DNA from: Escherichia phage PJNS034
Sequence record: PP391266.1
Direction: 5' to 3' (one strand)
DNA length: 64,000 nt
The position numbers and the translations under genes are program-made. Of this stretch, positions 5,003 through 62,765 are shown in pieces (position 1 is the stretch's first letter; the number at the start of each line of letters is the position of its first letter). The notes beneath the pieces were generated by a model, which saw only the letters and a program-made list of their open reading frames with translations, was not told the origin of the DNA and searched no databases.

Positions 5003-5004
5003 AT

Positions 5005-5167: not shown

Positions 5168-5174
5168 AATCCCT

Positions 5175-47738: not shown

Positions 47739-48198
47739 GGATGTAACAATGTCTCAAGTTCTGAATGATGTAAACCGCAGCTTTGGTTATGAGTTCTACG
47801 AAGAATCAAAAGCTCTGTCTGGTGTTCAAGGCTATCTGGCTGACCAGCCTAAGTTTCGTGTGTTCCTCAAGCTGCGTCGTCGCATGATTGAAGGTGAACT
47901 GCGTCAACTGAAAGTGATGCTGAAAACTGCCTCTGGTCTGGATGCTGCCGCTATCTACAAGCTGCGCTCTGCACTGAAAGATGATTTGCGTCGTATCGGT
48001 CAGCAACTGAAAGACCTGCGACTGCATACGCTGGGTGCTAAGAAAGCAGAAGCACAGCGTTACCTGAACGTAATGGCAATGCACGACCAGTGTGAGAAGG
48101 TCGGTGTTGATGGTACAAAACTCCTGAATGAAGTACATGCTGAAATTCAGGCTCGTAAGGCTTTGGATAATGAGTCTCGCAAACTGGTTTCTGAATAA
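47713..48198 (+). CDS. hypothetical protein (161 aa)
   Basis: ORF-track ORF. Confidence 0.3.
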   Translation: MVLVTNNNKDVTMSQVLNDVNRSFGYEFYEESKALSGVQGYLADQPKFRVFLKLRRRMIEGELRQLKVMLKTASGLDAAAIYKLRSALKDDLRRIGQQLKDLRLHTLGAKKAEAQRYLNVMAMHDQCEKVGVDGTKLLNEVHAEIQARKALDNESRKLVSE

Positions 48199-48339
48199 GA
48201 TGGAAGCAGGGGTTGATTTGACCCCTGTTAAAAATGTAGGGCTGGTTAAGGCCAGCACCTCACACAATGGCGGCGTTAACTTATCTGAGAAAGAACGTTA
48301 TCGTCGTCGTGAATTATCTGGAGGGATTGCTGAGCATCA

Positions 48340-49059
48340 TTGCACACATCCCGGTTATCAAATCTTCCCTTCATAAGAGAGTACAAAGTGAAACGTCCTG
48401 AAACTGCAATCCGACCGTTTATGAAGTCCAGCATTGAGAAGCTGGAAGCTGGTCAACTGTTCTATGTTCGCAATGAGAAAGGTAGTGGTTATCGTCCTCG
48501 TTGCTTTGTTGGTGTGTTGCCTGATGGTAAGACGTATCAGTATCAGTCTTACATGAACAACGATATCTTTGATTCGGTTTATGAAGAACCGCATCTTGAC
48601 GACCAGCCTGTGTTTGTCCCGAAACCATTTGCAATGAAAATCATGCAACGTGGTAAGGCACTGGCTGAGGAAGTTGCTGAGGTATTCAGCGAGATTCCAG
48701 CGAACGAAATTCAACGTTCGAATCTGGATGAACTGTTCGACCGTCTGCCTGATGAAGTTATCGACTACGACGCTTATGAAGCGATTCGTCAGGCTGTACG
48801 TCGTTTGGGTTGGCAGGACGCATCAATTGTTCGTCGTCAGAATGGCGGCTGGATGGTTGATGATGAAGCGTTTGAATATATGTACAACGCTGTGACTGGC
48901 AAGGCTGAGCGTGAAGCAGCGGATACTACTGTGACGATTGCTCCGGTGGTTGATGTGGTTGATAGCTCGATTAGCCGACCAAAAGCTAATTCATTCGTTA
49001 AGAAGCTGAGCGGTTTCTTGTTTGGTAATTCTAAGCAAGGGGATAGCTGCGGCATCTAA
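48340..49059 (+). CDS. hypothetical protein (239 aa)
   Basis: ORF-track ORF. Confidence 0.3.
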   Translation: MHTSRLSNLPFIREYKVKRPETAIRPFMKSSIEKLEAGQLFYVRNEKGSGYRPRCFVGVLPDGKTYQYQSYMNNDIFDSVYEEPHLDDQPVFVPKPFAMKIMQRGKALAEEVAEVFSEIPANEIQRSNLDELFDRLPDEVIDYDAYEAIRQAVRRLGWQDASIVRRQNGGWMVDDEAFEYMYNAVTGKAEREAADTTVTIAPVVDVVDSSISRPKANSFVKKLSGFLFGNSKQGDSCGI

Positions 49060-49070
49060 ACGGTGATTGT

Positions 49071-49520
49071 ATGAGTGTTGCAGCAACAGCAGCATTTCTG
49101 TGTATGACGTTAGTTATTCACGAAGAAGCACGAGGCGAGCCTATCGCTGTGAAATACGAGGTAGGCCACGTGGTGAAGAATCGGATGGATTCACGCCAGT
49201 ATCCAGATACATGCGAGGCGGTTGTACTGCAACCCAAACAGTTCTCGTGGACAAAAACAAAAGGTGTACAAGATGAGTACGATTTGCGACAACGTTATTA
49301 TCGCGTCCTTGACTCGCTCGACACTCCCCAAAAGCGACTTTCGTTTGCTGCTTCTCAAAGAGCGGCAGATGAAGTGCTCAGTGGTAAGCATAAATCTCGA
49401 ATCGGAGCTGCGCTCCACTTCGTTACTCGCGGTCACTCAACTCATTGGGCGTCCAAATTTAAACGCCATACTATAGCAGGTATGGATTTCCTACTCCCAA
49501 GGAAGAAGAAAAATGCTTAA
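49071..49520 (+). CDS. SleB-like cell-wall hydrolase (endolysin candidate)
   Basis: HEEARGEP matches the conserved EARGE segment of the SleB/Hydrolase_2 family as recalled. Confidence 0.55.
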   Translation: MSVAATAAFLCMTLVIHEEARGEPIAVKYEVGHVVKNRMDSRQYPDTCEAVVLQPKQFSWTKTKGVQDEYDLRQRYYRVLDSLDTPQKRLSFAASQRAADEVLSGKHKSRIGAALHFVTRGHSTHWASKFKRHTIAGMDFLLPRKKKNA

Positions 49521-49716
49521 ATGGCTGTTCCGTCAGGGAAAAGACCTGAACTCTATTCTGGCTCCGCTTCGTAAGATGAAGCTGGAACTGGAAGAACGCC
49601 TCCACAAGAATGCTGATGATATTGTGGAAGCACAAAAGACCATCACCGAAAAGACCAAAGAAAATGGTTCTATTGGTGAAGCCCTGCAAACTGACCTGTT
49701 CAAATCTATCAAGTGA
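49513..49716 (+). CDS. hypothetical protein (67 aa)
   Basis: ORF-track ORF overlapping neighbours at both ends. Confidence 0.3.
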   Translation: MLKWLFRQGKDLNSILAPLRKMKLELEERLHKNADDIVEAQKTITEKTKENGSIGEALQTDLFKSIK

Positions 49717-50645
49717 GACAAACGACTATGATTCGCACCCCATTCGGTAACTTCTCTGGTAAGACTATCGGTATCACTGCTGGCGTGATTGTGTTCCTCT
49801 TCATCCTGCTGCTGTTGAAGCCGTTCAAAGTTATCTCTGACACCGAGGAGGGTGTGCAGAAGTCGTGGTCAGGCCAGATTTACAGTCAACCAATGACTGC
49901 TGGCTTCCACTGGATGAACCCGTTCAACAGCGTCACAACGTTCCCAATGACGTATAAGAACGTTCAACTGACAAATATCGGCGTTCCTGCTCAGGACGGT
50001 TTCAAAACCACGATGGATATCAGCGTAACTGGTAAATTTATTCCGGGCATGACCCCTGCTGTCCTGAAGTCTACCGGTAATTCTGAACAGTTTGCAGCAG
50101 TGCATATCTCTAAACGTATCACAGCTAAGCTGATTGATGCTGGTAAGAAGCACGCTGTAATCAGTCAGAACTTCTACGATGAAAGCACTCTGAACAAAGT
50201 TCGTGAAGAAATCATCGTAACGGCTAACCAAGAGCTTGAGCCTCTGGGTTGGAAAGTGACTGCGGTTGAAATCAGCAACATCGACCTGCCGGACGTTATC
50301 AAGAACGCTATCAGCGAGTCCAAGGTTCGTGCTGAACAGGTTAAGCGTCAGAAAGAATCCTTAGCAATTGCTGCTCTGAAAGCACAAGAGATTGAGAAAG
50401 TTGCAGAGTCTAACTCTAAAGCAACTATCCTCGATGCTGATGCTAACGAGTACAAAGCTAAGAAAGAAGCTGATGCTAAAGTGTATGCTGCTGCTCAGGA
50501 AGCAAAAGGTAACAAAGAAGTTGCTGCCTCTGTAACTCCTGCTCTGGTTGAATACATGAATGCTCAAGCTAAGATGAAGTGGGATGGTCAGATGCCAACA
50601 ACGAATGTTGGTTCTAACACTCCTGTCATCATGAGCATGAAGTAA
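49713..50645 (+). CDS. SPFH/band-7 (stomatin/prohibitin-like) membrane protein
   Basis: N-terminal hydrophobic anchor, then band-7-like core and Ala/Lys/Glu-rich coiled-coil tail. Confidence 0.55.
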   Translation: MRQTTMIRTPFGNFSGKTIGITAGVIVFLFILLLLKPFKVISDTEEGVQKSWSGQIYSQPMTAGFHWMNPFNSVTTFPMTYKNVQLTNIGVPAQDGFKTTMDISVTGKFIPGMTPAVLKSTGNSEQFAAVHISKRITAKLIDAGKKHAVISQNFYDESTLNKVREEIIVTANQELEPLGWKVTAVEISNIDLPDVIKNAISESKVRAEQVKRQKESLAIAALKAQEIEKVAESNSKATILDADANEYKAKKEADAKVYAAAQEAKGNKEVAASVTPALVEYMNAQAKMKWDGQMPTTNVGSNTPVIMSMK

Positions 50646-51015: not shown

Positions 51016-52413
51016 ATGCCAATCGTAACTATCGTAACTAACCGTAATAACTCTGAAACTAAGCGTGTTGAAGCTCAGTCAGGCGGTTGCTTCGGCTTTA
51101 TGGCATCAACCTCTTTCTTCCGTGACCATCGCCGCGATGTTGAGTACGTTGGTTATCATATGGAGTCATCCAATCAGGCTAAGCATTGTAGCGAAGTCTT
51201 TGATGGTAAGAATAAGTTATTCCCGTATCACAAATTCATGACCAACAATGAGTTCCATGCTATGTTCGGTGAGAACTTTGTGGATACTCGCCACGGTACT
51301 GTTAGTCACCACGGTTATGTGGTTGTTGAAATGCAGCCAGAAGGTTTTGAAGGTGTTGGTATTCCACAGGACATGTTCATCTCTGGTCTGTTCACTGCTC
51401 GTCAGTTGAGCTATGGCCTGTATCCGAACATGCGTGACACCATTAAGAAAGGTGTTCACCCAATGATGGCTTACGTTATCAGTGAGCTGATTCAGTGGGA
51501 AGATACAAGCACTGCTCTTGCTGCACAGCTTCGCTGGAAACGTCAGCGTGTTAGTTCTTCCAACATCGACAGCACAGCGTTCGGTAAGAAGAACCTGATT
51601 AACATGTTCAACTGCCTGAAAGGTAAGAAGCATGTGCCTTACTTCGGTCACGAAGGTGGCATCATTCAGCGTGGTGGTTACAAGCGTGACCATAACTTCA
51701 ACACCTCTGCTGATAATCGTCCGGGTATTTATCAGACAATCACGGCGAACATGAACACTTCATCTGCACCGATTGAAGCTGATGAACCAATCATCAACCC
51801 GTTCCACTTCTCTCCAGCTTACCTCGGTCATGTACTGAATGAACTGCTGGGTTGTGAAGTATTTGATATGTCGAAGATGCTTGACCGTCAGGGTATGAAA
51901 GTTAACCCAAAATCTTCGGTGTACAAGTTCTACCAGATGCGTGATGTGAAGTTCCGTAAGTCATATCGAAAAGGTGATATGGTTGAAGTTCGTGCTGATA
52001 TGTTCGGTGCTGACCAGTACATCAACCGTCACAACACTCCGCTGAGCAATCTGGTTTCTTATCGTCATGGTGAGAACAACACCACTAACCGTGTTGGTTT
52101 CGTACCGGTTAAGACTCATGTTGAGAAGGTCAGCGTGAAGAACGGTGTGGAAAGCGTTAAGCTGGAAAACGGTTGCTGGGTATCTCCACGTTACATCAAA
52201 ACTGCTGGTACTCATGCGGTTGAAGGTGTGAAGATTCAGGCAGGTACTGACACTCCGGTAAATGCACTGTATACAGTTCGTAATTCAAAAGAAGTGTATG
52301 CTGCACGTACCTTTGACTTGTTCGAAGCATCTGTTCGACTGATTCAGGTTACTGGTAACAGTATCGGTCAAGAGATTATCAAGCGTCCACGTGACCTGAT
52401 TCCAGCGCTCTAA
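51016..52413 (+). CDS. hypothetical protein (465 aa), first large gene of the ligase cluster
   Basis: Long ORF with no motif I can assign; contiguous with the amide-ligase genes. Confidence 0.5.
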   Translation: MPIVTIVTNRNNSETKRVEAQSGGCFGFMASTSFFRDHRRDVEYVGYHMESSNQAKHCSEVFDGKNKLFPYHKFMTNNEFHAMFGENFVDTRHGTVSHHGYVVVEMQPEGFEGVGIPQDMFISGLFTARQLSYGLYPNMRDTIKKGVHPMMAYVISELIQWEDTSTALAAQLRWKRQRVSSSNIDSTAFGKKNLINMFNCLKGKKHVPYFGHEGGIIQRGGYKRDHNFNTSADNRPGIYQTITANMNTSSAPIEADEPIINPFHFSPAYLGHVLNELLGCEVFDMSKMLDRQGMKVNPKSSVYKFYQMRDVKFRKSYRKGDMVEVRADMFGADQYINRHNTPLSNLVSYRHGENNTTNRVGFVPVKTHVEKVSVKNGVESVKLENGCWVSPRYIKTAGTHAVEGVKIQAGTDTPVNALYTVRNSKEVYAARTFDLFEASVRLIQVTGNSIGQEIIKRPRDLIPAL

Positions 52414-52567
52414 TGGGTATTAATAAGACCATGACTACAGCGTTCTTTATCCTCGCTGTAGCATCGCCAATACTTGCCTGTTTCAATACAACAGCAGCAG
52501 CATTTAGTGCTGGCATGGCTGTCTTCGCAATGCTTTGTTATGTTGTAGCGAACGGTTGATATACTCA

Positions 52568-52595
52568 AGGTCATTCACAAAGTGAGTGGCCTTTA
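52568..52595 (+). terminator. intergenic hairpin with conserved flanks (cassette copy 2)
   Basis: aggtcattcac / gtgagtggcct stem, flanked by ATACTCAAG and CTTTATGAAT. Confidence 0.4.
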
Positions 52596-52645
52596 TGAAT
52601 ATCATCTGCCAATAACGGCAACTTAAACTGAACGAGGAAACTACT

Positions 52646-53455
52646 ATGACGATTCGCCTGATTACTCTTGGTGCTGACCCTGAAACTATTGTTGCTCGCA
52701 ACGGTGTTCCAACTCACGCTATTGGTCTTATCGGCGGTACTAAGGAAGAACCACGTAAGATTATCCGTGGTGGTCGTGAAGTTGGTGCGGTGCAGGAAGA
52801 TAATGTCCTGTATGAGTTCAACATCATGCCACACGATACTCGTCAGGGATTCATTGACAACATTCAGCAGATGTTGGAAGTGGGTCGTGAGATTCTGGGT
52901 GATGGTTACGAAATCACTAATAAGACTTCTCACATCTTCTCTGATGAAGACATGGCTCATTTCCCTGACTCAGCGTTTATCTTCGGTTGTGAACCGGATT
53001 TCTTCGCTGGTAATGGTGAGATGAATCCGAAGCCTGCTGCACCGTGGCCGGGTCTGCGTACCGCAGGTGGTCATGTTCACTTCGGGTTCGATGAGCGTGT
53101 AGTTCGTGATGATGAGAATGTTCGTTCTCTGATTCAACTGTGCGATATGTATATGGCGTTGCCGTCAATGCTTCTGGACACTGACGACCTGCGTAAAGAA
53201 CTGTATGGTAAGGCCGGTGCATTCCGTCCGAAAGCATATGGTGCTGAATATCGTACACTGTCAGGTTTCTGGATTCATAATCCTGAAAATACTGGCTTCG
53301 TGTTTGACCAAGCGCAGAAAGCGTATGATGCGTTGGCAACTGGTCTGGGTCGTGAGATGTTGGCACGTTTCCCATACGAACTGGTTGTCGATATCATCAA
53401 CAGCAATGACCGTGGACGTGCTGAACGTGCCCTGAAAGTTATGCAGGTTGCATAA
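52646..53455 (+). CDS. amidoligase-like protein, divergent (269 aa)
   Basis: GADPETIV and TAGGHVHFGF parallel the GLELELE and STHVHLD segments of the downstream amidoligase-like ORF; preceded by conserved leader. Confidence 0.4.
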   Translation: MTIRLITLGADPETIVARNGVPTHAIGLIGGTKEEPRKIIRGGREVGAVQEDNVLYEFNIMPHDTRQGFIDNIQQMLEVGREILGDGYEITNKTSHIFSDEDMAHFPDSAFIFGCEPDFFAGNGEMNPKPAAPWPGLRTAGGHVHFGFDERVVRDDENVRSLIQLCDMYMALPSMLLDTDDLRKELYGKAGAFRPKAYGAEYRTLSGFWIHNPENTGFVFDQAQKAYDALATGLGREMLARFPYELVVDIINSNDRGRAERALKVMQVA

Positions 53456-53637
53456 TGGAAGAAGGTCTGCTGATTAGCTGGGTTGAATCTCCAGCGAACC
53501 GTAAGACCAAGACTCATACCCTCTTCTTCGAAAGCCTGGACGAGGGTTATGAGTTCATGGCCTCTAAAAGTTGTGTAATTCAAGTACAACGCATTCCACT
53601 GGTGAGAAAGAATGGCGAAACTGGTAACGGTAAATAA
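53455..53637 (+). CDS. hypothetical protein (60 aa)
   Basis: ORF-track ORF, start overlaps previous stop. Confidence 0.25.
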   Translation: MEEGLLISWVESPANRKTKTHTLFFESLDEGYEFMASKSCVIQVQRIPLVRKNGETGNGK

Positions 53638-53803
53638 CGCAGATAAAACTGTAACTCGTCGTGTCTTTATGGACAACGAAGAGGGTATCATGTGGGCAGT
53701 TGACCAAGCCCGCACAGCACTGTCAGTCGTGACTGATGATGTGGAAGTGGTCGAGGCTTCCAGCCGTAAAGGTTGGGAAGGTCATATCGCATGTGATTGC
53801 TAA
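53612..53803 (+). CDS. hypothetical protein (63 aa)
   Basis: ORF-track ORF. Confidence 0.25.
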   Translation: MAKLVTVNNADKTVTRRVFMDNEEGIMWAVDQARTALSVVTDDVEVVEASSRKGWEGHIACDC

Positions 53804-53827
53804 TTTAAACTGAACGAGAGAACTAAA

Positions 53828-54436
53828 ATGTCAATCAATATGTCAAGTGGTGATTTACGTCTGTATTGGGGTGGGTGTTATGCACCTGTTGCATGGGATG
53901 CAGCAGATAGTGGCGTAGCAACACTGGTAATTCACGACGTTCGTGTGATAAATCCAATGTCACGTGACTACACCGAAGCACGAGTTCAAGGTGAACTATT
54001 CTTCATTCGTAATGGAGAAGAGGCTCGTGGTAATTTTGAAGGTCGTATGTCTGACCTCCTCGGTGATGGGTTCACCACTCCTCAACGCAATATCGGTTAT
54101 ATCCGTGTTCACGGTCAACCGTATTGGATTACCTTCAAACGTCGTCGTACAAATCGTAAAGGCATCACCAATGACCGTCTGGCTGTGTATGTAGCTGGGC
54201 ATCGTGGTGAAGCAGGTTTGAACTTCGGTAGTGATGTGTTGTGTCGTCTGTATGCAACCTTTGATGGTCGTATCTCTGATGATTTCTGTATTCATCAGAA
54301 CATGATTCATTATAAAGGTGTGGTTGTCGGACGTTATGAGCGTCACAATCGTATTGTATTAGCTGAACGTTTTGCGTATCTTAGCTGGTCGCTGGAACGT
54401 ATCGGTGGTTACGACGTAACGGTGGAGGTTGAGTAA
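53828..54436 (+). CDS. hypothetical protein (202 aa) inside ligase cluster
   Basis: Preceded by conserved TTAAACTGAACGAG leader; stop overlaps amidoligase start. Confidence 0.4.
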   Translation: MSINMSSGDLRLYWGGCYAPVAWDAADSGVATLVIHDVRVINPMSRDYTEARVQGELFFIRNGEEARGNFEGRMSDLLGDGFTTPQRNIGYIRVHGQPYWITFKRRRTNRKGITNDRLAVYVAGHRGEAGLNFGSDVLCRLYATFDGRISDDFCIHQNMIHYKGVVVGRYERHNRIVLAERFAYLSWSLERIGGYDVTVEVE

Positions 54437-55260
54437 TGATTATTGCTGACATTTTAGGGCATGGTCGTGGGTCGGATGTTGTTGATACGCATCCGTTGAT
54501 TGTTGGTCGAGGCCGTGTAGGACTCGAATTAGAACTGGAGAATATGCCAAATGCTCGACAAGCTGCTGGTTGGACAGTTACTGGTGACGGTTCTCTGCGT
54601 AATAGCGGCGTGGAATATGTACTCCGTGGTGCTCAGGGAGGTATGGAGTTATTTAATTCGATACTTTCTCTGGAAGAAGCACTCATGGCACATCAATGTG
54701 ATGCTAACCTTCGCTGCTCTACTCACGTTCACCTTGATATACGTCGGCTCACTGTGGCTCAACTCAAGCGTTTACTTCTGGCTTATACAGTCTTTGAGCC
54801 ATTAATCTTTGAGTTGTCCGGTGCGCATCGTCGTACTAACAACTTCTGTCCGTCGTTTAGTTTCGCTCAGCAACAAATTCGTAAGCTGAGTAACAACTGG
54901 CATCATGATGGTGAACGATTCCTTGCTCGTATTGTGGAAGGTCGTGACCGCCAATCCAGTGATAAGTATTCAGCACTGAATCTGGTTCCAATCTTCACTC
55001 AGGGTTCTGTAGAGTTCCGTGGTGCAGAAGCGAAGCCAAGTGCAGGTAAGATGATTCGTCTGGCTAACCGTATTCTAAGTCTGTATGACTTAGCGGTTAA
55101 CTCTGATATGAATCAGTCTGATGCTGAGTTCATTAACTCACTGGCGAACCTTGATGTTCAACAGGCATTGATGGGTACGATTCCTCGTGACTTCGAACTC
55201 AGCGAAGAACTGGTGAATGAAGGACGTGTCTTAGCGTTCGATATTATCTCTCTGGGGTGA
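54436..55260 (+). CDS. amidoligase (Amidoligase_2 / carboxylate-amine ligase-like) protein
   Basis: VGLELELE...DGSLRNSGVEYV...STHVHLD resembles the putative amidoligase family (glutamine-synthetase-like fold) as recalled. Confidence 0.5.
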   Translation: MIIADILGHGRGSDVVDTHPLIVGRGRVGLELELENMPNARQAAGWTVTGDGSLRNSGVEYVLRGAQGGMELFNSILSLEEALMAHQCDANLRCSTHVHLDIRRLTVAQLKRLLLAYTVFEPLIFELSGAHRRTNNFCPSFSFAQQQIRKLSNNWHHDGERFLARIVEGRDRQSSDKYSALNLVPIFTQGSVEFRGAEAKPSAGKMIRLANRILSLYDLAVNSDMNQSDAEFINSLANLDVQQALMGTIPRDFELSEELVNEGRVLAFDIISLG

Positions 55261-55261
55261 C

Positions 55262-55477
55262 ATGAGCTGGAACGAACGAGAGTATCGTAAACCAAAGTTG
55301 GGCACTGTATGTGTCCACTTCGAACCTTCGTATAAGTCAACCTTTGGAAGTACGAAGAAGTTCCCTAACGCATCGTTCTACTTGAGTACGAACGGTGTAA
55401 TCATCATCCGTGATATGGATGGTGACAACATCTGTGCATACCCTGAAGGTGTGTGGCTGAATGTTGAAATGAAGTGA
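55262..55477 (+). CDS. hypothetical protein (71 aa)
   Basis: ORF-track ORF; followed by a clean terminator hairpin. Confidence 0.3.
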   Translation: MSWNEREYRKPKLGTVCVHFEPSYKSTFGSTKKFPNASFYLSTNGVIIIRDMDGDNICAYPEGVWLNVEMK

Positions 55478-55485
55478 TTAACTCA

Positions 55486-55508
55486 AGCCCTTCTTCGGGA
55501 GGGTTTTA
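55486..55508 (+). terminator. Rho-independent terminator (cassette copy 3)
   Basis: 8-bp stem agcccttc/ggagggtt with ttcg loop, then tttta; preceded by AACTCAAG. Confidence 0.55.
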
Positions 55509-55563
55509 TGGTAATCATTACCACAAACTATTGAAACTAACTATTGAACTTGAGGAAAGTATT

Positions 55564-57156
55564 ATGTGCGGAATCGTTGGAATTATGCGTGGCGTTATGA
55601 CTGAAGGTATGGTGGACATGTTTGAACAACTGCTGTATGCAGATGTGTTCCGTGGCCCGCACTCCACTGGCGTCTATCGTGTTAATAAAGATGGTCAATC
55701 AGGGTTGTATAAGGATGCAGTACCTGCGTCTTTATATCTTGGCTCGAAAGGCTGGGATGATTTACGTGGGAATCTGAATGGAACTGCTGGTCATCAGGCA
55801 CTGTCTCAAGTTTATGTTGGTCATAACCGTTGGGCAACTGTAGGTGCAGTTAACGCTGTGAACTCACATCCATTCAAGTGCGGTAACATCACGATGGTAC
55901 ACAATGGTACTGTTGCGAAGTGGCGTTTGAATGACCACCTGAAGTATGACGTTGATAGTCATGCGGTGTGTGCGATGTTGGATTCACATGGTCTGGCTGA
56001 AACTCTGAAAGTTCTGGATGGTAAGTTTACTCTGGTGTGGCATGACGCATCTGATAACACCATGAACTTTATCCGTAATGCAGAACGTCCTCTGCACATG
56101 GTTGAGTTCACTGATGGTGGTTGGGCGTTTGCATCAGAAGGTGAGATGTTAACGTGGATTAATGGTCGTCGTAAGACCCCGTTTGGTATTAAACGTGCTT
56201 TCGAACTGCCAGTTGGCTTCCATCATAAATTCCAGTTATCCGCGAGCAAAGTAGAGCTTGCGGAGGTCGTTAAGTACGAACTCCCAAAGTTCACCAGCTA
56301 CGCCAGCAACAGCACGTATTATCCAAACCGAAGCTCAGTCGCAAGCAGCAGCGCAAGCTCAACAAACTCAGAAAGCGCAACCGCTAGACGTGTGCGTCTG
56401 ATGAAAGAGTGGGGCATTGACGTTGGAGACCGCAAAGATGTAGAGAACATGATTGTGTCTCTGGATAACATCGCGTTCACAGCGTACTCAACCAATGCAG
56501 CATCAGGTCGTATTGATGCAGACGCATGGGGTTACGATGAAGCTGTTGATGCCTGTGATGCTGGTCATATGGAAATTGACTGTAAGCGTGGTGGTAAAAC
56601 TGAAGATGTTCAGGTAACAGTTTACGGTGTTGATACTGTTAAGTGGAAAGACAACTACTCTCAGGGCGACCGTCTGTACGGTAAGATTGACAGTGTGTTT
56701 GAATCCACTGAGCATGGCAAGACTCGTCTTCGTATCACTTTGAAACCACTGACTCTGTGTACTGAGTTGGCTGATGGCGTTGAAGCCTTTAATGAGAAAG
56801 TGTTCCCGCTCCTCATTAAGAAAGAGGCCGAAAAGGTTGATGCCGACAAAAGTAAATCAGATGTTGCAGGAAGCACTGGAAGCGCAGGAACTGCAACTGG
56901 TCAGGGAACTCAGTTATCGGTTGTAGTGGATAACACTGCAAAAAAGCCGGAAGGTACGGACTCATCAAGCGGCTCGCCGAACTTGTTCAACATGTCCGCA
57001 ATTCCAATGAGTCTTAAAGACTTGCGTGAAGACAAGCTGAGTTGTGCTTGGTGCGGAAATGCAATCCACGAACATAACTACGAAATGTCTGATATGTTCT
57101 TTAAATCTCACATCTGCCCAGATTGTGCCAAGGAGTTACCGGGTTATGGCGACTGA
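55564..57156 (+). CDS. class II (Ntn-type) glutamine amidotransferase-like protein with C-terminal zinc ribbon
   Basis: Begins MCGIVGI (Cys directly after Met, hallmark of N-terminal nucleophile amidotransferases); Ser-rich linker; C-terminal CAWCG...CPDC; start moved to internal ATG with GAGG upstream. Confidence 0.7.
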   Translation: MCGIVGIMRGVMTEGMVDMFEQLLYADVFRGPHSTGVYRVNKDGQSGLYKDAVPASLYLGSKGWDDLRGNLNGTAGHQALSQVYVGHNRWATVGAVNAVNSHPFKCGNITMVHNGTVAKWRLNDHLKYDVDSHAVCAMLDSHGLAETLKVLDGKFTLVWHDASDNTMNFIRNAERPLHMVEFTDGGWAFASEGEMLTWINGRRKTPFGIKRAFELPVGFHHKFQLSASKVELAEVVKYELPKFTSYASNSTYYPNRSSVASSSASSTNSESATARRVRLMKEWGIDVGDRKDVENMIVSLDNIAFTAYSTNAASGRIDADAWGYDEAVDACDAGHMEIDCKRGGKTEDVQVTVYGVDTVKWKDNYSQGDRLYGKIDSVFESTEHGKTRLRITLKPLTLCTELADGVEAFNEKVFPLLIKKEAEKVDADKSKSDVAGSTGSAGTATGQGTQLSVVVDNTAKKPEGTDSSSGSPNLFNMSAIPMSLKDLREDKLSCAWCGNAIHEHNYEMSDMFFKSHICPDCAKELPGYGD

Positions 57157-57439
57157 TAAAATTGTAATTCGTATGCCGAAAGACGACATTGAATGTGAGC
57201 GGAAATATCCGTTCACTTACTTCATGAATGCAGCGCTGCGTGGTATGCAGCGTCGCTACTCTGAACAAGCGTCGGCAAAGTTTGGTAGTGAAGTTGAGAT
57301 TCTATTCCCAACTGCATTATCAAAAATGATTCATGACCACATGGTCACTCTGTATCAACAGGAAGGATTCGAACTCGCTGAAGAAGATTTCGAAGACTCC
57401 GAACAATACCGCAAATATCTGAAACTAATTAAGGGCTAA
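57146..57439 (+). CDS. hypothetical protein (97 aa)
   Basis: ATG overlapping the amidotransferase stop; ORF-track frame. Confidence 0.35.
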   Translation: MATDKIVIRMPKDDIECERKYPFTYFMNAALRGMQRRYSEQASAKFGSEVEILFPTALSKMIHDHMVTLYQQEGFELAEEDFEDSEQYRKYLKLIKG

Positions 57440-57444
57440 AACAA

Positions 57445-58938
57445 ATGCTGCGTATCTTCAACTACAACAACGGTTCTCAAGGTCTGGGTGCTCTGCGTGA
57501 ACATGTAGAGCCATTGATTCGTGAGATGAATACTCATCGTGGTTTCCGTAACATTCGTCCGGTTATGGGTAGCGAGAATGGTTCTGCTCGTCTGTTTCAG
57601 GCGACTAACCGCTTCATTATGAACTGGGGTTCTTCGCAACCCCTGAACACTGATGAAAGCAACTTCGTTCTCAACAAACCGGAAGCTGTTGGTTTAGCAA
57701 CTCATAAACTCCGCTTCTTCCAACATGTTCACCAGTGGAACCAAGAGAAGATTGCTCAGGGTGTGAATGGCCTGACTGTTCCGATTCCTGAGTGGACAAC
57801 TTCTCGTGATGAAGCTCAGACTTGGGCAGGGCATGACCATCTGGTTTATGCCCGTCAACGTCTGCAAGGTCATAGCGGTGAAGGTATCGAAGTATACGGT
57901 ATCAATCAGGTTGTTGAACGTGCTCCACTGTACACCAAAGGCATCATCGGTGCTCGTCGTGAGTATCGTGTTCATGTCATTGCTGGTCAGGTGGCACTGG
58001 TTCAGTTGAAGAAACGCCGCAATGGTGGTGAGGCTGTGGGCAATGGTAATGACCATGTTCGTAACCTCGGCTCTGGTTGGGTGTATGCAGTAAGTGATGC
58101 TCGTCCATCACCAGTCGTATTGAGTGCAGCACAGAATGCAGTTCGTGCTCTGGGTCTGGACTTTGGTGCGGTAGACATTATCGCTAAAGGTCGTAAAGGT
58201 CAGGAGCGTGAGTGCTGGGTGTTGGAAGTTAACACTGCACCGGGTCAGCGTGGTGATACTACTGTGACGCTGTATGCTCGTGCTGTTGCATCGGCATATG
58301 CAATCTGGATGAATCGTGATAGCGTTGACGTCCGTGATTTAGGAGGTGTCAAAGCTGCATGGGAAACACTTCCTTGGCTGAACGATGAAACCTTCCTTGC
58401 TCTGATGCGTGATGAAGGTGCAGATGGTTCGGTACTTCTGCGTTCTCAGCGTGAAACTCAGGCAGCAGAGGCAGAAATGCCTAACACTGACGATGATGTG
58501 GCGGCAGATGAAAACTTTGCCCTTCCTGCTGATGAACTGACACCTGCTCGTGCAACCTCTGGTGCTCATGTAGTTCACACTGGTACTCGTTGGGTTGATG
58601 TAGAAGCAGCACCTCAAGTTCGTGCTGAGCCTGTACGTCGTCGTGACGGTGAGCCAATGCCGTTCAATGGTAATCCATTCGATGCACGTATTCGTCGTGA
58701 ACCTGCACCACGTCCTGCACCTGAACCGGTTGTAATGCCAGAACGTCGTGTCATGTTGTCTCGTCTGGGACAGAATGACCCACAGAACGAACAGTTCGTG
58801 GTATTCACATGGAACGGTCGTCGTGAAGTCGGTGTAGTCAATACTCGTCTGGGTGTTGTTTACATGGCTGGTAGCGAAGTTCAACTTCCACTGGCTCAGG
58901 TTGATTTGATTGCGGTAGTTGATACCGAAATTCGTTAA
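57445..58938 (+). CDS. ATP-grasp ligase (RimK-like) with ~200-aa C-terminal extension
   Basis: YRVHVIAG and GLDFGAVDII...VLEVNTAPG match the RimK/GshB-type ATP-grasp C-terminal motifs as recalled; C-terminal half Pro/Arg-rich, unassigned. Confidence 0.7.
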   Translation: MLRIFNYNNGSQGLGALREHVEPLIREMNTHRGFRNIRPVMGSENGSARLFQATNRFIMNWGSSQPLNTDESNFVLNKPEAVGLATHKLRFFQHVHQWNQEKIAQGVNGLTVPIPEWTTSRDEAQTWAGHDHLVYARQRLQGHSGEGIEVYGINQVVERAPLYTKGIIGARREYRVHVIAGQVALVQLKKRRNGGEAVGNGNDHVRNLGSGWVYAVSDARPSPVVLSAAQNAVRALGLDFGAVDIIAKGRKGQERECWVLEVNTAPGQRGDTTVTLYARAVASAYAIWMNRDSVDVRDLGGVKAAWETLPWLNDETFLALMRDEGADGSVLLRSQRETQAAEAEMPNTDDDVAADENFALPADELTPARATSGAHVVHTGTRWVDVEAAPQVRAEPVRRRDGEPMPFNGNPFDARIRREPAPRPAPEPVVMPERRVMLSRLGQNDPQNEQFVVFTWNGRREVGVVNTRLGVVYMAGSEVQLPLAQVDLIAVVDTEIR

Positions 58939-58967
58939 TTGCTTTAGGGTATTCTTCGGAGTACCCT

Positions 58968-59189
58968 ATGTCGATTGAACCGAACGAGGAATATATGAAA
59001 GTATGGGTAGTTATGTTCCAAGAGTATGACCTAGCCGAAGTGCTGGAAATCTACTCGAAGGAAGAAGATGCTATAGCACATCGTCAGGCTGAAATTGATA
59101 AGAGCTTGTCATACGCTAAGAAGTGGAATGTCAAACCACACCCTGCGCTCGAACAGTTTTATACAATTCACGAAAAAGAGGTAAAGTAA
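58968..59189 (+). CDS. hypothetical protein (73 aa)
   Basis: ATG lies at the 3' edge of a hairpin whose loop carries GGAG. Confidence 0.3.
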   Translation: MSIEPNEEYMKVWVVMFQEYDLAEVLEIYSKEEDAIAHRQAEIDKSLSYAKKWNVKPHPALEQFYTIHEKEVK

Positions 59190-59596
59190 TGAGCAATTTA
59201 GTCGCTGTATATGGTTCCCTTCTGTCTGGTCTGCATAACCACGGTGTTATGGAACGTGCAAAGGGTAAGTTGATTGGTGCTGGTGAATCGGTGCAGAACA
59301 TCAACATGTATTCTCTGGGTGGTTTCCCTTCCATCTCTCTGGAACACTCCAGCCACGGTAATACAATTCGTGTTGAAGTATATGAAGTACCGGATGAAGG
59401 TATGCGTCCTCTGAATGCACTGGAAGGTTATCGTGGTGAAGATGGCCCGAACTTCTACAACCGCACTCCAATCAAAATTAAGATGGACAACGGTGATATG
59501 CTGGAAGCGTTCATCTATCACATCGACGAAACTCAATCCCATCCGGTTATTGATGGTGACTGGCGTAAATATCTGGAACAGCGAGGTCGTGCATAG
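59189..59596 (+). CDS. gamma-glutamyl cyclotransferase-like (AIG2/GGCT fold) protein
   Basis: N-terminal VAVYGSLL matches the YGS(L/N) signature; conserved Glu in LEGYRGE; start moved to internal ATG with AGAGG upstream. Confidence 0.6.
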   Translation: MSNLVAVYGSLLSGLHNHGVMERAKGKLIGAGESVQNINMYSLGGFPSISLEHSSHGNTIRVEVYEVPDEGMRPLNALEGYRGEDGPNFYNRTPIKIKMDNGDMLEAFIYHIDETQSHPVIDGDWRKYLEQRGRA

Positions 59597-61022: not shown

Positions 61023-62765
61023 TTGTCCCAAGAGTATCAAGGTGGTAAACGATTAACGCACGACGGCCCATGTCCAACATGTCGTTCTCATGGACGTGAC
61101 AGAACTGGCAACCACTTACAGTTCTGGGAGAATGATAAAGGCGAGCATTGGGCTTTCTGTAACCGATGCGGTCACTACGAAGACGATGGAAACAAACTCG
61201 GCTCGTATGAAAAGAAAGAACGTCGTGAGTTAAGCGATGAAGAAGTAGCGGAGGTGTTGTCAGAGATTGCCGAACTTCCGTATCAAGCGTTGGGTAGTCG
61301 TGGTATCACATTAGCAGTTGCCGAACGTTATGGTGTTCGTGTTGGATTAAGTCCACAGGACGGACAAACTCAAGTCTCTCACTTCTATCCGAAGATGAAG
61401 GGCAAGGATATCACTGGTTACAAAGTACGTCAGTTGAATCCGAAGTTCTTTTATCATCAAGGTCGTGGTGGTGGATGTGACTTGTTTGGTATGCAGCAAG
61501 CGTTGTTGAAGGATGTGTTTAAACATTCGTTGTATATCTTCGAAGATGAGTTGTCGGCAATGTCTGGTTTTCAGGTATTGAAACAATTCGCAAAAGAGGG
61601 TTACAAGAACTACTCACCAGCGGTTGTTTCATTGCCAGATGGAACGAAATCAGCAGCACGAGTGTGTGGTCAGAACCGTGAGTTCATCCAGAGTTTCAAA
61701 GAAGTTGTTGTCTGTATGGATAACGACAAAGCTGGTGATGATGCGGTTGAAGTGATTCGTTCACTTTATCCTGACAAAGTAAAAGTGGTACGACTTCCGC
61801 TGAAAGATGCGAACGATATGCTTATGGCAGGTCGTGAAATGGAGTTGTATCAGCACTTACGATTCAATGCCAAGACTGAGACGCCAGACGGTGCAGTATC
61901 CATTATGGATTGCATTGAAGATGCGTTGAAGAAACCGGAATGGGGTTTATCATTCCCGTGGCAGGGTCTTACGAACTTAACTTATGGCATTCAGTACGGT
62001 GAGATTATCGCTGTTGGTGGTGGTGTAGGTTTGGGTAAGACCTTGATTGGTCATGAGTTGTGTGCTCACTTGATTAATGTCGAGAAACAACGAATCGGCA
62101 TGTTCATGCTGGAGGAAACTGTTGGCAATACCATCAAGAACATTTCTGGTAAGGTTGCTAATATTCCTTTCCATCGCCCAGATGTTGAGTATGACCCTCA
62201 AACCCTTCGTGACGTAGCAATGTCGTTTGGCGACAATGTAGCGTTGTGGCAGAACAAAGGTCAGAACTCATGGGAGAACATTAAGGCATGTATGCGGTTC
62301 TGGGCTGTAGTTGAGGGTCGTAAGATTATGATTCTCGATAACATCACAGCGTTAACTGCTCACTTAACTCCAAGTGAAATCAACACGGAAATCAGTAAGA
62401 TTGCATCTGAACTTGCTGGCCTGTGTGACGAGTTAGGTATTGCATGTTTTGTATTCTCTCACTTAAATCCACCGTCAGGTGGTAAGCCACACGAAGAAGG
62501 TGGTGAAGTTAAAGAGGTTCAGTTCACTGGTTCACGAGCGTTGATGCGTTGGTGTCAGGTGATTCTTGGCTTCGAACGTAACAAATATGCAGAAGGGGAT
62601 GCAAAGAACATCTCACGCATTAAGTTACTGAAAGACCGTAAGTATGGTCAGTCTGGTTATATTCATACACGGTTCTATCCTGAAACTGGTCGTTTACTCG
62701 AAGTGACTGAACAAGAAGCTGGCGAGTACGAACAGACAGAGGAAGATAAAGACCGTTCATTCTAA
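61023..62765 (+). CDS. primase-helicase (T7 gp4-like)
   Basis: N-terminal zinc-binding CPTC...CNRC, central primase-like region, helicase Walker A GGGVGLGKT and Walker B-like MILDNIT; start read as TTG. Confidence 0.85.
   Translation: MSQEYQGGKRLTHDGPCPTCRSHGRDRTGNHLQFWENDKGEHWAFCNRCGHYEDDGNKLGSYEKKERRELSDEEVAEVLSEIAELPYQALGSRGITLAVAERYGVRVGLSPQDGQTQVSHFYPKMKGKDITGYKVRQLNPKFFYHQGRGGGCDLFGMQQALLKDVFKHSLYIFEDELSAMSGFQVLKQFAKEGYKNYSPAVVSLPDGTKSAARVCGQNREFIQSFKEVVVCMDNDKAGDDAVEVIRSLYPDKVKVVRLPLKDANDMLMAGREMELYQHLRFNAKTETPDGAVSIMDCIEDALKKPEWGLSFPWQGLTNLTYGIQYGEIIAVGGGVGLGKTLIGHELCAHLINVEKQRIGMFMLEETVGNTIKNISGKVANIPFHRPDVEYDPQTLRDVAMSFGDNVALWQNKGQNSWENIKACMRFWAVVEGRKIMILDNITALTAHLTPSEINTEISKIASELAGLCDELGIACFVFSHLNPPSGGKPHEEGGEVKEVQFTGSRALMRWCQVILGFERNKYAEGDAKNISRIKLLKDRKYGQSGYIHTRFYPETGRLLEVTEQEAGEYEQTEEDKDRSF

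What the first reader, a model, noticed from the sequence alone, without database searches (positions are those of the whole stretch)
51016..59596. Gene cluster combining amidoligases, an Ntn-amidotransferase, an ATP-grasp ligase and a gamma-glutamyl cyclotransferase
Within 8.6 kb on one strand lie two amidoligase-like genes (glutamine-synthetase-type carboxylate-amine ligases), an N-terminal-Cys class II amidotransferase-like protein with a zinc ribbon, a RimK-like ATP-grasp ligase and a GGCT-like enzyme, interleaved with unknown ORFs of 465, 202 and 97 aa. Established enzymology of these families: ATP-dependent amide bond formation, glutamine-amide transfer or thiol-peptidase chemistry, and removal of a gamma-glutamyl group as 5-oxoproline. 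Together that looks like a build-and-trim pathway for a glutamyl- or peptide-type amide adduct. The cluster sits among replication genes (primase-helicase, polymerase exonuclease domain, dUTPase), which is where phages usually keep DNA-modification genes, so DNA or nucleotide hypermodification is my leading hypothesis. Alternatives are synthesis of a small peptide-like metabolite or covalent modification of a protein. I cannot match the combination to any characterised pathway.
Basis: partly seen in the sequence, partly recalled or inferred. Interest (0 to 1): 0.92.

Follow-up and report, generated by a model that had tools for sequence, protein, structure and literature searches.

The report
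Known phiEco32-type phage amidoligase module
The gene cluster is real, but it is a module that comparative genomics already found in hundreds of phages (phiEco32, LUZ24 and relatives).

Summary
Every enzyme assignment was confirmed: COOH-NH2 ligase type 2, Amidoligase_2, an Ntn (class II) amidotransferase with a C-terminal zinc ribbon, a RimK-like ATP-grasp ligase and a GGCT. Two starts needed correcting.

The combination is not new. Pfam PF14395 is named after this phage module. The same gene order recurs in Kuravirus, Bruynoghevirus/Vicosavirus, Privateervirus, Lahexavirus, Zobellviridae and many metagenomic contigs (92 loci compared). Papers call it a putative peptidoglycan-modification module, citing Iyer et al. 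2009. I found no experimental work.

- The 202-aa ORF is a universal component with no fold relative.
- The 465-aa ORF is a divergent member of an upstream family that has one invariant cysteine.
- GGCT and a Peptidase_C26 gamma-glutamyl hydrolase almost always replace each other. The conserved chemistry is therefore adding and then removing a gamma-glutamyl group.

DNA hypermodification is disfavoured:
- The window has no base-handle enzyme.
- Module carriers have restrictable DNA, and one shows no base modification by nanopore.
- The window has no GATC at all and strong palindrome avoidance.

The acceptor remains unknown; I marginally favour a cell-envelope peptide. This is a new member of a known but uncharacterised kind.

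The parts
51016..52413 (+). 465-aa protein. Divergent member of the family that sits upstream of the module in other phages (U1/U2/V/W). Has an invariant Cys25 in a C[FYH]G motif. The C-terminal part forms SH3/KOW/Tudor-like beta-barrels.
52646..53455 (+). COOH-NH2 ligase type 2 (glutamine-synthetase/GCS2-like carboxylate-amine ligase)
   Evidence: PF14395 4.6e-10; phrog_3815 1.7e-85. 35 invariant columns, including Glu/His/Arg. 310 phage records hold a homologue.
53455..53637 (+). 60-aa ORF, start overlapping the ligase stop; weakly conserved
   Evidence: 37% identity to the TacPo2 positional homologue, E 5e-6. No family hit.
53612..53803 (+). 63-aa ORF, lineage-specific
   Evidence: 73% identical in TacPo2. 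No Pfam or PHROG hit.
53828..54436 (+). 202-aa core protein of unknown fold (phrog_4877), always between the two ligases
54436..55260 (+). Amidoligase_2 carboxylate-amine ligase
   Evidence: PF12224 5.7e-12; phrog_7469 1.2e-60. Invariant GxExExE, DGSLR, HxH and GSxExR motifs. Start overlaps the stop of the 202-aa gene.
55262..55477 (+). 71-aa ORF, lineage-specific
   Evidence: 75% identical in TacPo2. No family hit.
55489..55503 (+). Terminator-like hairpin followed by a T run
   Evidence: Consensus scan and sequence. It argues against the GTG 55474 start.
55564..57156 (+). Ntn (class II) glutamine-amidotransferase-like enzyme: N-terminal Cys, a middle region, a low-complexity linker and a C-terminal zinc ribbon
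   Evidence: GATase_6 3.3e-18; phrog_4736 2.9e-94; NCBIfam GlmS/AsnB/EgtC N-domains and a zinc finger at 490-524. Cys1/Arg/Asn-Gly/Asp conserved in 89-90 of 90. Zinc ribbon in at least 52/85.
57146..57439 (+). 97-aa DUF7195 protein with a strand-helix-helix pattern; accessory
   Evidence: PF23825 9.2e-07. Found in 24/92 loci, only in lineages of the window's architecture type (B-D-E-G-h-I, most with U1/U2 or the 465-aa protein upstream). C-termini are not conserved.
57445..58938 (+). RimK-like ATP-grasp ligase (residues ~1-300) with a lineage-specific C-terminal extension
   Evidence: phrog_2599 2.3e-75. Profile versus PDB: RimK 2.3e-07. Invariant GHSGxGI, ExR, VRN and ExN motifs. A homologue hits PF08443 at 1.2e-08.
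58968..59189 (+). 73-aa ORF; doubtful gene
   Evidence: No homologue in TacPo2 or any locus. No family hit.
59186..59596 (+). Gamma-glutamyl cyclotransferase (GGACT/AIG2-like)
   Evidence: PF06094 2.7e-19; phrog_2520 1.7e-37. YG[ST]L and catalytic Glu in 37/37. SD AAGAGG precedes ATG 59186.
49071..49520 (+). Context: SleB-type cell-wall hydrolase (Hydrolase_2)
   Evidence: PF07486 3.2e-16; endolysin PHROGs. Recurs upstream of the module in L004, L012, L015, L018, L020, L071, L092 and L093.
49713..50645 (+). Context: SPFH/Band 7 membrane protein
   Evidence: PF01145 2.2e-15. Found in 13/92 loci upstream of the module.
61023..62765 (+). Context: primase-helicase downstream of the module
   Evidence: 49-94% identical to phage primase/helicases. 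Lies downstream of the module in 47/57 complete loci.

Best explanation
This is a member of the phiEco32-type phage amidoligase module. It is co-transcribed and partly translationally coupled, and all its proteins are cytoplasmic.

Proposed mechanism (inferred from family enzymology):
1. The two glutamine-synthetase/GCS-like ligases (COOH-NH2 ligase, Amidoligase_2) and the RimK-like ATP-grasp ligase each use ATP to make one amide bond. Together they build a short adduct, containing glutamate, on an acceptor that has a free amine or carboxylate.
2. The Ntn enzyme keeps a complete glutamine/gamma-glutamyl pocket. It either supplies ammonia from glutamine to amidate a carboxylate, or cleaves a gamma-glutamyl amide (as EgtC does).
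3. GGCT finally removes a gamma-glutamyl group as 5-oxoproline. The gamma-glutamyl group would then be a transient protecting or activating handle.
4. The universal 202-aa protein and the upstream Cys-bearing protein (the 465-aa ORF here) are further obligatory components of unknown role.

Favoured acceptor (weakly; the published guess): the peptide of a cytoplasmic cell-wall precursor. The infected cell would then build altered peptidoglycan, giving superinfection exclusion or lysis conditioning.

My estimates:
- Membership of the known module: about 0.95.
- Gamma-glutamyl add-and-remove chemistry: about 0.7.
- Acceptor is not DNA: about 0.85-0.9.
- Acceptor is a cell-envelope peptide: about 0.3. 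This is the confidence given for the statement as a whole.
For: Shown:
- Family assignments and intact active sites.
- The order ligase / ~200-aa protein / Amidoligase_2 / Ntn enzyme / (DUF7195) / ATP-grasp / GGCT / primase-helicase is the same in TacPo2, Kuravirus MN05, PaP3, UFV-P2 and Rembedalsseter. All but the last two elements also hold in Proteus 3H10_20, which has no detectable GGCT or adjacent primase-helicase, and in Aeromonas LAh_9, where GGCT lies upstream.
- All four enzymes are present in 57/57 loci with full flanks.
- Among those 57 loci, 20 have GGCT only, 30 have Peptidase_C26 only, 2 have both and 5 have neither (Fisher p 8e-9, not corrected for phylogeny). The C26 members score PF07722 at 1e-16 and keep the Cys-His-Glu triad. 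Two unrelated gamma-glutamyl-removing enzymes filling one slot is the best evidence for the trim step.
- Genes are packed with 1-11-nt overlaps.

Context for an envelope target:
- Hydrolase_2, Band_7 and lipoprotein-like ORFs lie directly upstream.
- This arrangement is kept in relatives only 36% identical and in Privateervirus.
- Citing papers describe the module as a putative peptidoglycan-modification or superinfection-exclusion module (PMC11945000; PMC10580990, which cites Iyer 2009).
- Established precedents, from my own knowledge: MurT/GatD and AsnB1/LtsA amidate peptidoglycan carboxylates with glutamine.
Against: - No experiment on any member was found.
- No Mur-ligase, UDP- or lipid-binding domain occurs in any variant, including the longest ones.
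- GGCT, C26 and the Ntn pocket are known for L-gamma-glutamyl substrates, whereas the peptidoglycan stem has D-isoglutamate.
- The cell-wall hydrolase is near the module in only 8/92 loci and SPFH in 13/92. Synteny within a phage lineage is weak evidence.
- Changing the wall through precursors is slow relative to a lytic cycle.
- The same enzyme pairings occur in small-molecule pathways (PuuA/PuuD, EgtA/EgtC, GshA/GshB/ChaC, BtrJ/BtrG).
- The roles of the 202-aa and 465-aa proteins are unexplained.
Confidence: 0.3

Rival explanations
1. Small-molecule pathway. The module makes or transforms a cytoplasmic amine or peptide metabolite, for example a gamma-glutamylated polyamine or a glutathione-like gamma-glutamyl peptide. 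The gamma-glutamyl group is added by a GS/GCS-like ligase and later removed. The benefit could be DNA condensation, redox or nitrogen rerouting, or neutralising a host danger or defence metabolite.
For: - The family pairings equal known small-molecule routes (my own knowledge): PuuA (GS-like) with PuuD (Peptidase_C26) for putrescine; EgtA with EgtC (Ntn); GshA/GshB (ATP-grasp) with GGCT/ChaC; BtrJ (ATP-grasp) with BtrG (GGCT).
- NCBIfam lists EgtC among the matches of the Ntn domain.
- C26 replaces GGCT in 30/57 loci.
- All proteins look cytoplasmic, and no target protein with a conserved terminus is encoded.
- There are no defence-system relatives.
Against: - Two to three large conserved proteins without enzyme signatures (the 202-aa family; U1/U2 or the 465-aa protein) and a conserved zinc ribbon on the Ntn enzyme are unusual for a simple metabolite pathway.
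- No transporter or further tailoring enzyme is consistently linked.
- No metabolomic evidence was found.
Confidence: 0.25
2. Protein modification. The ligases add glutamate or a short peptide tag to a host or phage protein, as RimK does on the C-terminus of ribosomal protein S6. The Ntn enzyme and GGCT trim or reverse the tag. The 202-aa protein or the Cys-bearing upstream protein is the substrate, an adaptor or a thioester carrier.
For: - The closest solved relatives of the ATP-grasp are RimK enzymes.
- The source paper of the family concerns peptide modifications of proteins, as cited in PMC4431377.
- The zinc ribbon and SH3/Tudor-like barrels are typical macromolecule-binding modules.
- The upstream family has a single invariant Cys.
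Against: - No module-encoded protein has a conserved acidic C-terminus.
- DUF7195 termini vary, and it is present in only 24/92 loci.
- No E1/E2/Pup-like partner is present.
- PDB profile searches of the ligase and the upstream family find nothing.
Confidence: 0.17
3. DNA or nucleotide hypermodification. The ligases attach an amino-acid-type group to a base or nucleotide, and the trimming enzymes mature it, protecting the DNA from restriction.
For: - The module sits directly upstream of primase-helicase in 47/57 loci.
- ATP-dependent amide ligation on DNA has a precedent in CmoY (PMC12783734).
- Amidoligase and amidotransferase Pfam hits co-occur with thymidine-hypermodification genes in some viral contigs (PMC8989533).
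Against: - The window holds no enzyme that installs a handle: no hydroxymethylase, thymidylate-synthase homologue, 5-HMUDK, aGPT-Pplase, MTase, CmoA/X, TET/JBP or DpdA.
- Rembedalsseter has the full module, yet native-versus-WGA nanopore comparison showed only nicks.
- U17 DNA was sensitive to 11 of 16 enzymes.
- Bruynoghevirus Delta gives normal BamHI patterns.
- The window has 0 GATC against about 245 expected, and 6-bp palindromes at 0.39 of expectation. All module carriers examined lie at 0.37-0.77. This implies selection on unmodified sites and offers another reason for the RM resistance.
Confidence: 0.08

Closest known systems
phiEco32-like amidoligase module (Iyer, Abhiman, Burroughs & Aravind 2009, Mol Biosyst 5:1636; Pfam PF14395 'Phage phiEco32-like COOH.NH2 ligase-type 2' and PF12224)
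   Same: The gene content and order match Kuravirus, Bruynoghevirus and Vicosavirus: COOH-NH2 ligase, ~200-aa protein, Amidoligase_2, Ntn amidotransferase-like enzyme with zinc ribbon, DUF7195, ATP-grasp, GGCT, then primase-helicase.
   Different: One 465-aa protein with C-terminal SH3-like barrels replaces the two ~300-aa paralogues U1/U2. The ATP-grasp carries a ~200-aa extension. Amidoligase_2 is the short form (274 aa). Extra small ORFs are present. Protein identities are only 30-45%. The function is untested for every member.
Zobellviridae/VPp1-type variant of the same module (TC6, WD615, Asterion, OM43 phages)
   Same: The same five core proteins.
   Different: That variant has Peptidase_C26 instead of GGCT, and V/W upstream proteins. 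It lacks DUF7195, and the Ntn gene is often placed before the ligase.
Gamma-glutamyl handle pathways: PuuA/PuuD (putrescine), EgtA/EgtC (ergothioneine), BtrJ/BtrG (butirosin), GshA/GshB/GGCT (gamma-glutamyl cycle)
   Same: They use the same enzyme superfamilies in the same logic: an ATP-dependent gamma-glutamyl or peptide ligation, followed by removal of the gamma-glutamyl group by a C26, Ntn or GGCT enzyme.
   Different: There is no orthology. Similarity is at the superfamily level only. The phage module has three ligases and two or three extra proteins of unknown fold. The substrates are unknown.
Peptidoglycan amidation systems MurT/GatD and AsnB1/LtsA
   Same: A glutamine-hydrolysing subunit is coupled to an ATP-dependent ligase acting on a peptide carboxylate. 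AsnB1/LtsA use an Ntn class II domain.
   Different: No Mur-ligase or asparagine-synthetase (PP-loop) domain is present here. Those systems have no GGCT, C26 or ATP-grasp partner.
Phage DNA hypermodification clusters (5-hmdU-derived pathways; CmoA/CmoX/CmoY)
   Same: Phage-encoded, near replication genes, and can include ATP-dependent amide formation (PMC12783734, PMC8989533).
   Different: Those clusters depend on an enzyme that first installs a hydroxymethyl, phosphomethyl or carboxymethyl handle. None is present in the window. CmoY is an asparagine-synthetase homologue, not one of these ligase families.
RimK (ribosomal protein S6 glutamate ligase)
   Same: It is the best solved relative of the ATP-grasp, with shared nucleotide and Mg motifs.
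   Different: The relationship is weak: profile E 2e-7 over two short stretches, and the window protein itself is below Pfam thresholds. The PHROG label 'S6 glutaminyl transferase' is annotation transfer, not evidence of the substrate.

Membership tests
phiEco32-type phage amidoligase module | COOH-NH2 ligase type 2 (PF14395) present | tested here: met
   4.6e-10, above the Pfam cut-off; phrog_3815 1.7e-85.
phiEco32-type phage amidoligase module | A second GS/GCS-like ligase (Amidoligase_2), an Ntn amidotransferase-like enzyme and an ATP-grasp ligase in the same operon | tested here: met
   All four enzymes co-occur in 57/57 complete loci.
phiEco32-type phage amidoligase module | Conserved gene order, including the ~200-aa protein between the two ligases | tested here: met
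   The order B-D-E-G-h-I-K-P is identical to L002, L003, L014-L017 and L094.
phiEco32-type phage amidoligase module | A gamma-glutamyl-removing enzyme (GGCT or Peptidase_C26) attached | tested here: met
   GGACT 2.7e-19, with catalytic Glu and the YGSL motif.
phiEco32-type phage amidoligase module | Biochemical product or target (proposed: peptidoglycan peptide) | not testable with these tools
   No experimental report was found. The original paper is not held.
Class II (Ntn) glutamine amidotransferase | N-terminal nucleophile Cys directly after the initiator Met, plus the Arg / Asn-Gly / Asp glutamine-binding residues | tested here: met
   MCGIVG at ATG 55564. Cys in 90/90 and the other residues in 89/90 homologues.
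Class II (Ntn) glutamine amidotransferase | A fused or partnered synthase domain that accepts the ammonia (GlmS isomerase, PurF PRTase, AsnB PP-loop, GltS) | tested here: not met
   No known domain follows residue ~270 except a zinc ribbon. It may therefore be an amidohydrolase (EgtC-like), or it may deliver NH3 to a separate ligase.
ATP-grasp, RimK-like | ATP-grasp nucleotide and Mg motifs, with a significant profile match to solved members | tested here: met
   Invariant GHSGxGI, ExR and ExN motifs. RimK 2.3e-07 and Ddl 2.9e-04.
ATP-grasp, RimK-like | Pfam or NCBIfam RimK model above the curated cut-off | tested here: not met
   No Pfam hit. TIGR00768 gives 14 bits against a 143-bit cut-off. 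The homologue L004 does pass PF08443.
GGCT / GGACT (AIG2-like) | Pfam model above cut-off, the YGSL motif and the catalytic Glu | tested here: met
   70.3 bits against a 22.8-bit cut-off. Motif and Glu conserved in 37/37.
Phage DNA hypermodification pathway | An enzyme that installs the reactive handle on a base or nucleotide (dUMP/dCMP hydroxymethylase, 5-HMUDK, aGPT-Pplase, CmoA/CmoX, TET/JBP, DpdA) | tested here: not met
   None appears in the Pfam sweep of 47 ORFs or the PHROG scans of 20 larger ORFs. About 1.7 kb of the genome lies outside the window.
Phage DNA hypermodification pathway | Non-canonical nucleosides in virion DNA, or restriction resistance in vitro | not testable with these tools
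   Indirect evidence only. Carriers Rembedalsseter and U17 show none. The window avoids GATC and palindromes. Kuravirus RM resistance in vivo is unexplained.
Peptidoglycan precursor-modifying system | A domain that recognises UDP-MurNAc-peptide or lipid II (Mur-ligase or Fem-type) | tested here: not met
   No such Pfam or NCBIfam domain is found in window proteins or in enlarged homologues.
Peptidoglycan precursor-modifying system | Linkage to envelope genes | tested here: inconclusive
   Hydrolase_2 and Band_7 are adjacent here and in L004, L012, L018, L092 and L093. But they are present in only 8 and 13 of 92 loci.
LysW-type amino-group carrier system (RimK-family ligase plus a small carrier) | A small zinc-ribbon protein with a conserved acidic C-terminal Glu as the attachment site | tested here: not met
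   DUF7195 has no Cys pairs and its C-termini vary. The tails after the zinc ribbon of the Ntn enzyme are not conserved.

The most novel reading that the evidence does not exclude
The module installs a covalent modification, or makes a metabolite, that has never been characterised. It would do so by three successive ATP-dependent amide ligations with a transient gamma-glutamyl handle. It would need two phage-only protein families with no detectable fold relatives: the universal ~200-aa protein, and the upstream family with a single invariant cysteine, possibly a thioester carrier or a new thiol enzyme. The product would serve in host takeover, superinfection exclusion or counter-defence in hundreds of phages, including therapeutic Pseudomonas and E. 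coli phages.
Probability: 0.5. Interest if true: 0.75.

Novelty: new member of a known kind. Interest (0 to 1): 0.45.

Why it matters
The module is among the most widespread multi-enzyme gene sets in podophage-type genomes that still has no known product.
- 310 of 50,697 deposited phage records hold the marker ligase.
- 373 IMG/VR stretches encode a relative of it.
- The ~200-aa partner family alone spans 2,639 clusters at 50% identity.
- Carriers include LUZ24-like and Kuravirus phages used or proposed for therapy.

Identifying the product would fill a 15-year-old gap left by a purely computational prediction. It could also reveal new amide-ligase chemistry and a new way for phages to remodel the host.

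For this window, the practical message is that it should not be filed as a DNA-modification locus. The GGCT/C26 swap, the conserved glutamine pocket and the two proteins of unknown fold give concrete handles for experiments.

Tried and rejected
1. Rosetta-stone search. Pfam on the longest variants of each component found no extra informative domain: 846-aa Ntn enzyme, 524-567-aa Amidoligase_2, 618-aa ATP-grasp, 448-aa D fusion.
3. Fold of the 465-aa protein. Only the C-terminal SH3/KOW/Tudor-like barrels match. I considered a Hint/intein-like reading of the 'SGG-CFG' motif and dropped it, because no Hint fold was returned.
4. Sequence-profile searches of the COOH-NH2 ligase and the upstream family against the PDB found nothing.
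5. DUF7195 as a LysW-like carrier: rejected.
6. Defence or anti-defence relatives: none in PADLOC.
7. Literature. The Iyer 2009 and Savalia 2008 papers are not held. A metabolomics search returned only irrelevant papers. The fimbrial ATP-grasp paper is unrelated.
9. Near-identical DNA search. Only Pantoea phage TacPo2 matched (about 80% identity), and it is annotated entirely as hypothetical.

Full report
**Observation.**
The + strand between 51016 and 59596 carries a tight gene array.
- 52646-53455: COOH-NH2_lig, PF14395 4.6e-10, phrog_3815 1.7e-85.
- 54436-55260: Amidoligase_2, PF12224 5.7e-12.
- The Ntn class II amidotransferase-like protein: GATase_6 3.3e-18.
- GGACT: PF06094 2.7e-19.
- The ATP-grasp has no Pfam hit of its own. 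It matches phrog_2599 at 2.3e-75. A profile built with eight homologues finds RimK structures at 2.3e-07 and D-Ala-D-Ala ligases at about 3e-04. The ATP-grasp motifs are invariant.

Two starts need correction.
- The amidotransferase begins at ATG 55564. This gives Met-Cys-Gly, is preceded by GAGGAAA, and follows a terminator-like hairpin at 55489-55503.
- GGCT begins at ATG 59186.

The 97-aa ORF is DUF7195 and the 202-aa ORF is phrog_4877. A dUTPase was not found. Successive genes overlap by 1-11 nt, as in an operon.

**Source and relatives.**
The 465-aa protein is 100% identical to a hypothetical protein of Escherichia phage PJNS034, on a 65,715-bp contig. The only close DNA relative in the phage collection is Pantoea phage TacPo2. 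It is about 80% identical, syntenic, and annotated entirely as hypothetical.

**The combination is already known.**
The marker ligase has homologues in 310 phage records. The same order is annotated in Kuravirus MN05, Bruynoghevirus PaP3, UFV-P2 and Vicosavirus Rembedalsseter. That order is: ligase, ~200-aa protein, Amidoligase_2, Ntn enzyme, ~72-aa protein, ATP-grasp, GGCT, primase-helicase. Proteus 3H10_20 and Aeromonas LAh_9 keep the order through the ATP-grasp. The Proteus phage has no detectable GGCT, LAh_9 has GGCT upstream of the module, and neither has the primase-helicase next to it.

Pfam's own name for PF14395 is 'Phage phiEco32-like COOH.NH2 ligase-type 2'. Papers on carriers call the set a putative peptidoglycan-modification module. 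They say it could make three unusual peptide linkages, and might prevent superinfection or prepare lysis (PMC11945000; PMC10580990, which attributes this to Iyer et al. 2009). That paper is not held. I found no experimental study of any member.

**Survey of 92 loci.**
I fetched 80 IMG/VR loci with a ligase alignment. I added nine annotated or metagenomic loci and built iterated HMMs for each component.
- In the 57 loci with enough flank on both sides, the COOH-NH2 ligase, Amidoligase_2, Ntn enzyme and ATP-grasp are present in 57/57.
- The ~200-aa protein is detected in 50/57. In nearly all loci where it is missed, a ~200-220-aa ORF fills the same gap. It is therefore a core component.
- Its family is large: 2,639 clusters at E<=1e-3.

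**The trim step.**
Many loci lack GGCT. Instead they carry a ~210-aa protein that scores as Peptidase_C26 / class I GATase (1e-16) with its Cys-His-Glu triad conserved. Among the 57 complete loci, 30 have C26 only, 20 have GGCT only, 2 have both and 5 have neither. The Fisher p is 8e-9, not corrected for shared ancestry.

Both families are known to remove gamma-glutamyl groups. GGCT releases 5-oxoproline; C26 acts by hydrolysis, as in PuuD and gamma-glutamyl hydrolase (established enzymology). Two unrelated enzymes occupying one functional slot is the strongest internal evidence that the conserved chemistry includes making and then removing a gamma-glutamyl linkage.

The Ntn enzyme keeps the nucleophile Cys (90/90) and the Arg, Asn-Gly and Asp that hold the alpha-amino and alpha-carboxylate of glutamine (89/90). 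It lacks any known ammonia-accepting synthase domain. It could therefore be a glutaminase feeding a ligase, or an EgtC-like gamma-glutamyl amidase. Its C-terminal zinc ribbon is ancestral, present in at least 52/85 homologues. The ribbon's partner is unknown.

**The 465-aa ORF.**
It has only seven database relatives besides TacPo2. Relatives at 36% identity still sit between a Hydrolase_2 / Band_7 pair and the module.

Profile comparison links it to U2 (83.8%, E 8e-6) and U1 (65%). These are the two paralogous ~300-aa proteins found upstream of the ligase in Kuravirus, Bruynoghevirus, Privateervirus and Lahexavirus. U1 links in turn to the V/W proteins of the C26-type lineages. An alignment of 45 such proteins has a single invariant column, Cys25, in a C[FYH]G motif.

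The model (pLDDT 77.8) shows an N-terminal ~300-aa domain with no structural relative, and C-terminal SH3/KOW/Tudor-like barrels. I therefore count this ORF as part of the module. Its role is unknown.

DUF7195 occurs in only 24 loci, looks strand-helix-helix, and has no conserved terminus. It is not a LysW-type carrier.

**DNA hypermodification.**
- Known routes need an enzyme that first installs a handle. No hydroxymethylase, thymidylate-synthase homologue, base kinase, methyltransferase, CmoA/X, TET/JBP or DpdA is present in the window (compare PMC8989533 and PMC12783734).
- Rembedalsseter carries the complete module. A native-versus-amplified nanopore comparison gave only a nick-associated motif (PMC11780129).
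- LUZ24-like U17 DNA was sensitive to 11 of 16 restriction enzymes. Bruynoghevirus Delta gives normal BamHI patterns.
- The window contains no GATC at all, against about 245 expected. It has only 402 six-base palindromes against 1,025 expected from composition, and 29 palindromes are absent. The depletion is even along the window. TacPo2 shows the same pattern. All carriers examined are depleted, at 0.37-0.77 of expectation. Site avoidance implies that the DNA meets restriction enzymes unmodified.

In favour of the hypothesis there remain two points. One is the position next to primase-helicase (47/57 loci), which may simply be inherited synteny. The other is the unexplained resistance of Gordonclarkvirinae to RM systems (PMC11990801), for which site avoidance is an alternative explanation. 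I put this rival at about 0.08.

**Which acceptor?**
This cannot be settled with these tools.
- For the published cell-wall idea: a SleB-type cell-wall hydrolase (49071-49520), an SPFH protein (49713-50645) and lipoprotein-like ORFs lie directly upstream, and recur in several lineages. Glutamine-dependent amidation of peptidoglycan carboxylates is established elsewhere.
- Against it: there is no Mur-type or lipid-binding domain. The L-gamma-glutamyl specificity typical of these families does not fit the D-isoglutamate of the stem peptide. The linkage to envelope genes is low (8 and 13 of 92 loci).
- The same enzyme pairings in PuuA/PuuD, EgtA/EgtC, GshA/GshB/GGCT and BtrJ/BtrG make a small-molecule product nearly as likely.
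- RimK-likeness, the zinc ribbon and the Cys-bearing protein keep a protein target open.

My estimates are: envelope peptide 0.30, small molecule 0.25, protein 0.17, DNA or nucleotide 0.08, and something else for the rest.

**Verdict.**

Its interest lies in the module as a whole. It is widespread, it occurs in therapeutic phages, it has two core proteins of unknown fold, and it now has a clear biochemical prediction of gamma-glutamyl addition and removal. The interest does not lie in any novelty of this particular window.

Noticed in passing
window 1-64000 (whole window): GATC is completely absent (0 observed, about 245-258 expected). Six-base palindromes are at 0.39 of composition expectation, and 29 are absent, including GAATTC, CTGCAG, CAGCTG and ATGCAT. 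The depletion is even along the window. The TacPo2, Vibrio WD615 and metagenomic L092 loci also have 0 GATC, and the Klebsiella Asterion locus has 1.
   Followed up: partly
window 4423-5251: An array of ten tRNA genes on the + strand (Pro, Tyr, Lys, Ser x2, Ile, Asn, Met, Trp, Gln), set among the replication genes.
   Followed up: no
window 62974-63609 and 761-2446: The DNA polymerase is split into a separate exonuclease-domain gene and a polymerase-domain gene. They lie near opposite ends of the window, with about 1.7 kb of the 65.7-kb genome outside it. The window is thus a permuted, near-complete genome of Escherichia phage PJNS034.
   Followed up: partly
window 46751-50645: An envelope-related block lies directly upstream of the module: an ORF with a signal-peptide-like N-terminus (46751), a lipoprotein-like ORF (47460...LLSAVMLTGC), a SleB-type cell-wall hydrolase (49071-49520) and an SPFH/Band 7 protein (49713-50645). 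All are in the early/middle transcription direction, away from the minus-strand block that holds the large ORFs.
   Followed up: partly
window 10451-11751: A nucleoside 2-deoxyribosyltransferase gene is followed by a PnuC-like nicotinamide-riboside/NMN transporter gene, next to the DNA ligase and an endonuclease. The BASEL paper points to a dCTP deaminase and a nucleotidyltransferase in related Gordonclarkvirinae as possible DNA-modification genes.
   Followed up: no
window 51016-52413; loci L002-L009 and others: The proteins upstream of the module (the 465-aa ORF, U1, U2, V, W) share one invariant cysteine in a C[FYH]G motif. In this lineage it reads SGG-CFG, reminiscent of autoprocessing sites. 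No Hint or known thiol-enzyme fold was found.
   Followed up: partly
L004, L012, L018, L020, L038 (Privateervirus-type loci): These complete modules have neither GGCT nor Peptidase_C26 within 10 kb. Two small proteins after the ATP-grasp (164 and 146 aa in L004) have no Pfam hit and might fill the slot.
   Followed up: partly
L005 (Aeromonas phage LAh_9) 16006-18798: Ribose-phosphate pyrophosphokinase and nicotinamide phosphoribosyltransferase genes lie immediately downstream of the module in this phage (an NAD salvage pair). An RNA ligase lies upstream here, and one does also in Proteus 3H10_20.
   Followed up: no
window 12307-17139 (- strand): A very large ORF of 1,610 aa opens the minus-strand block, which was not examined with any family search.
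   Followed up: no
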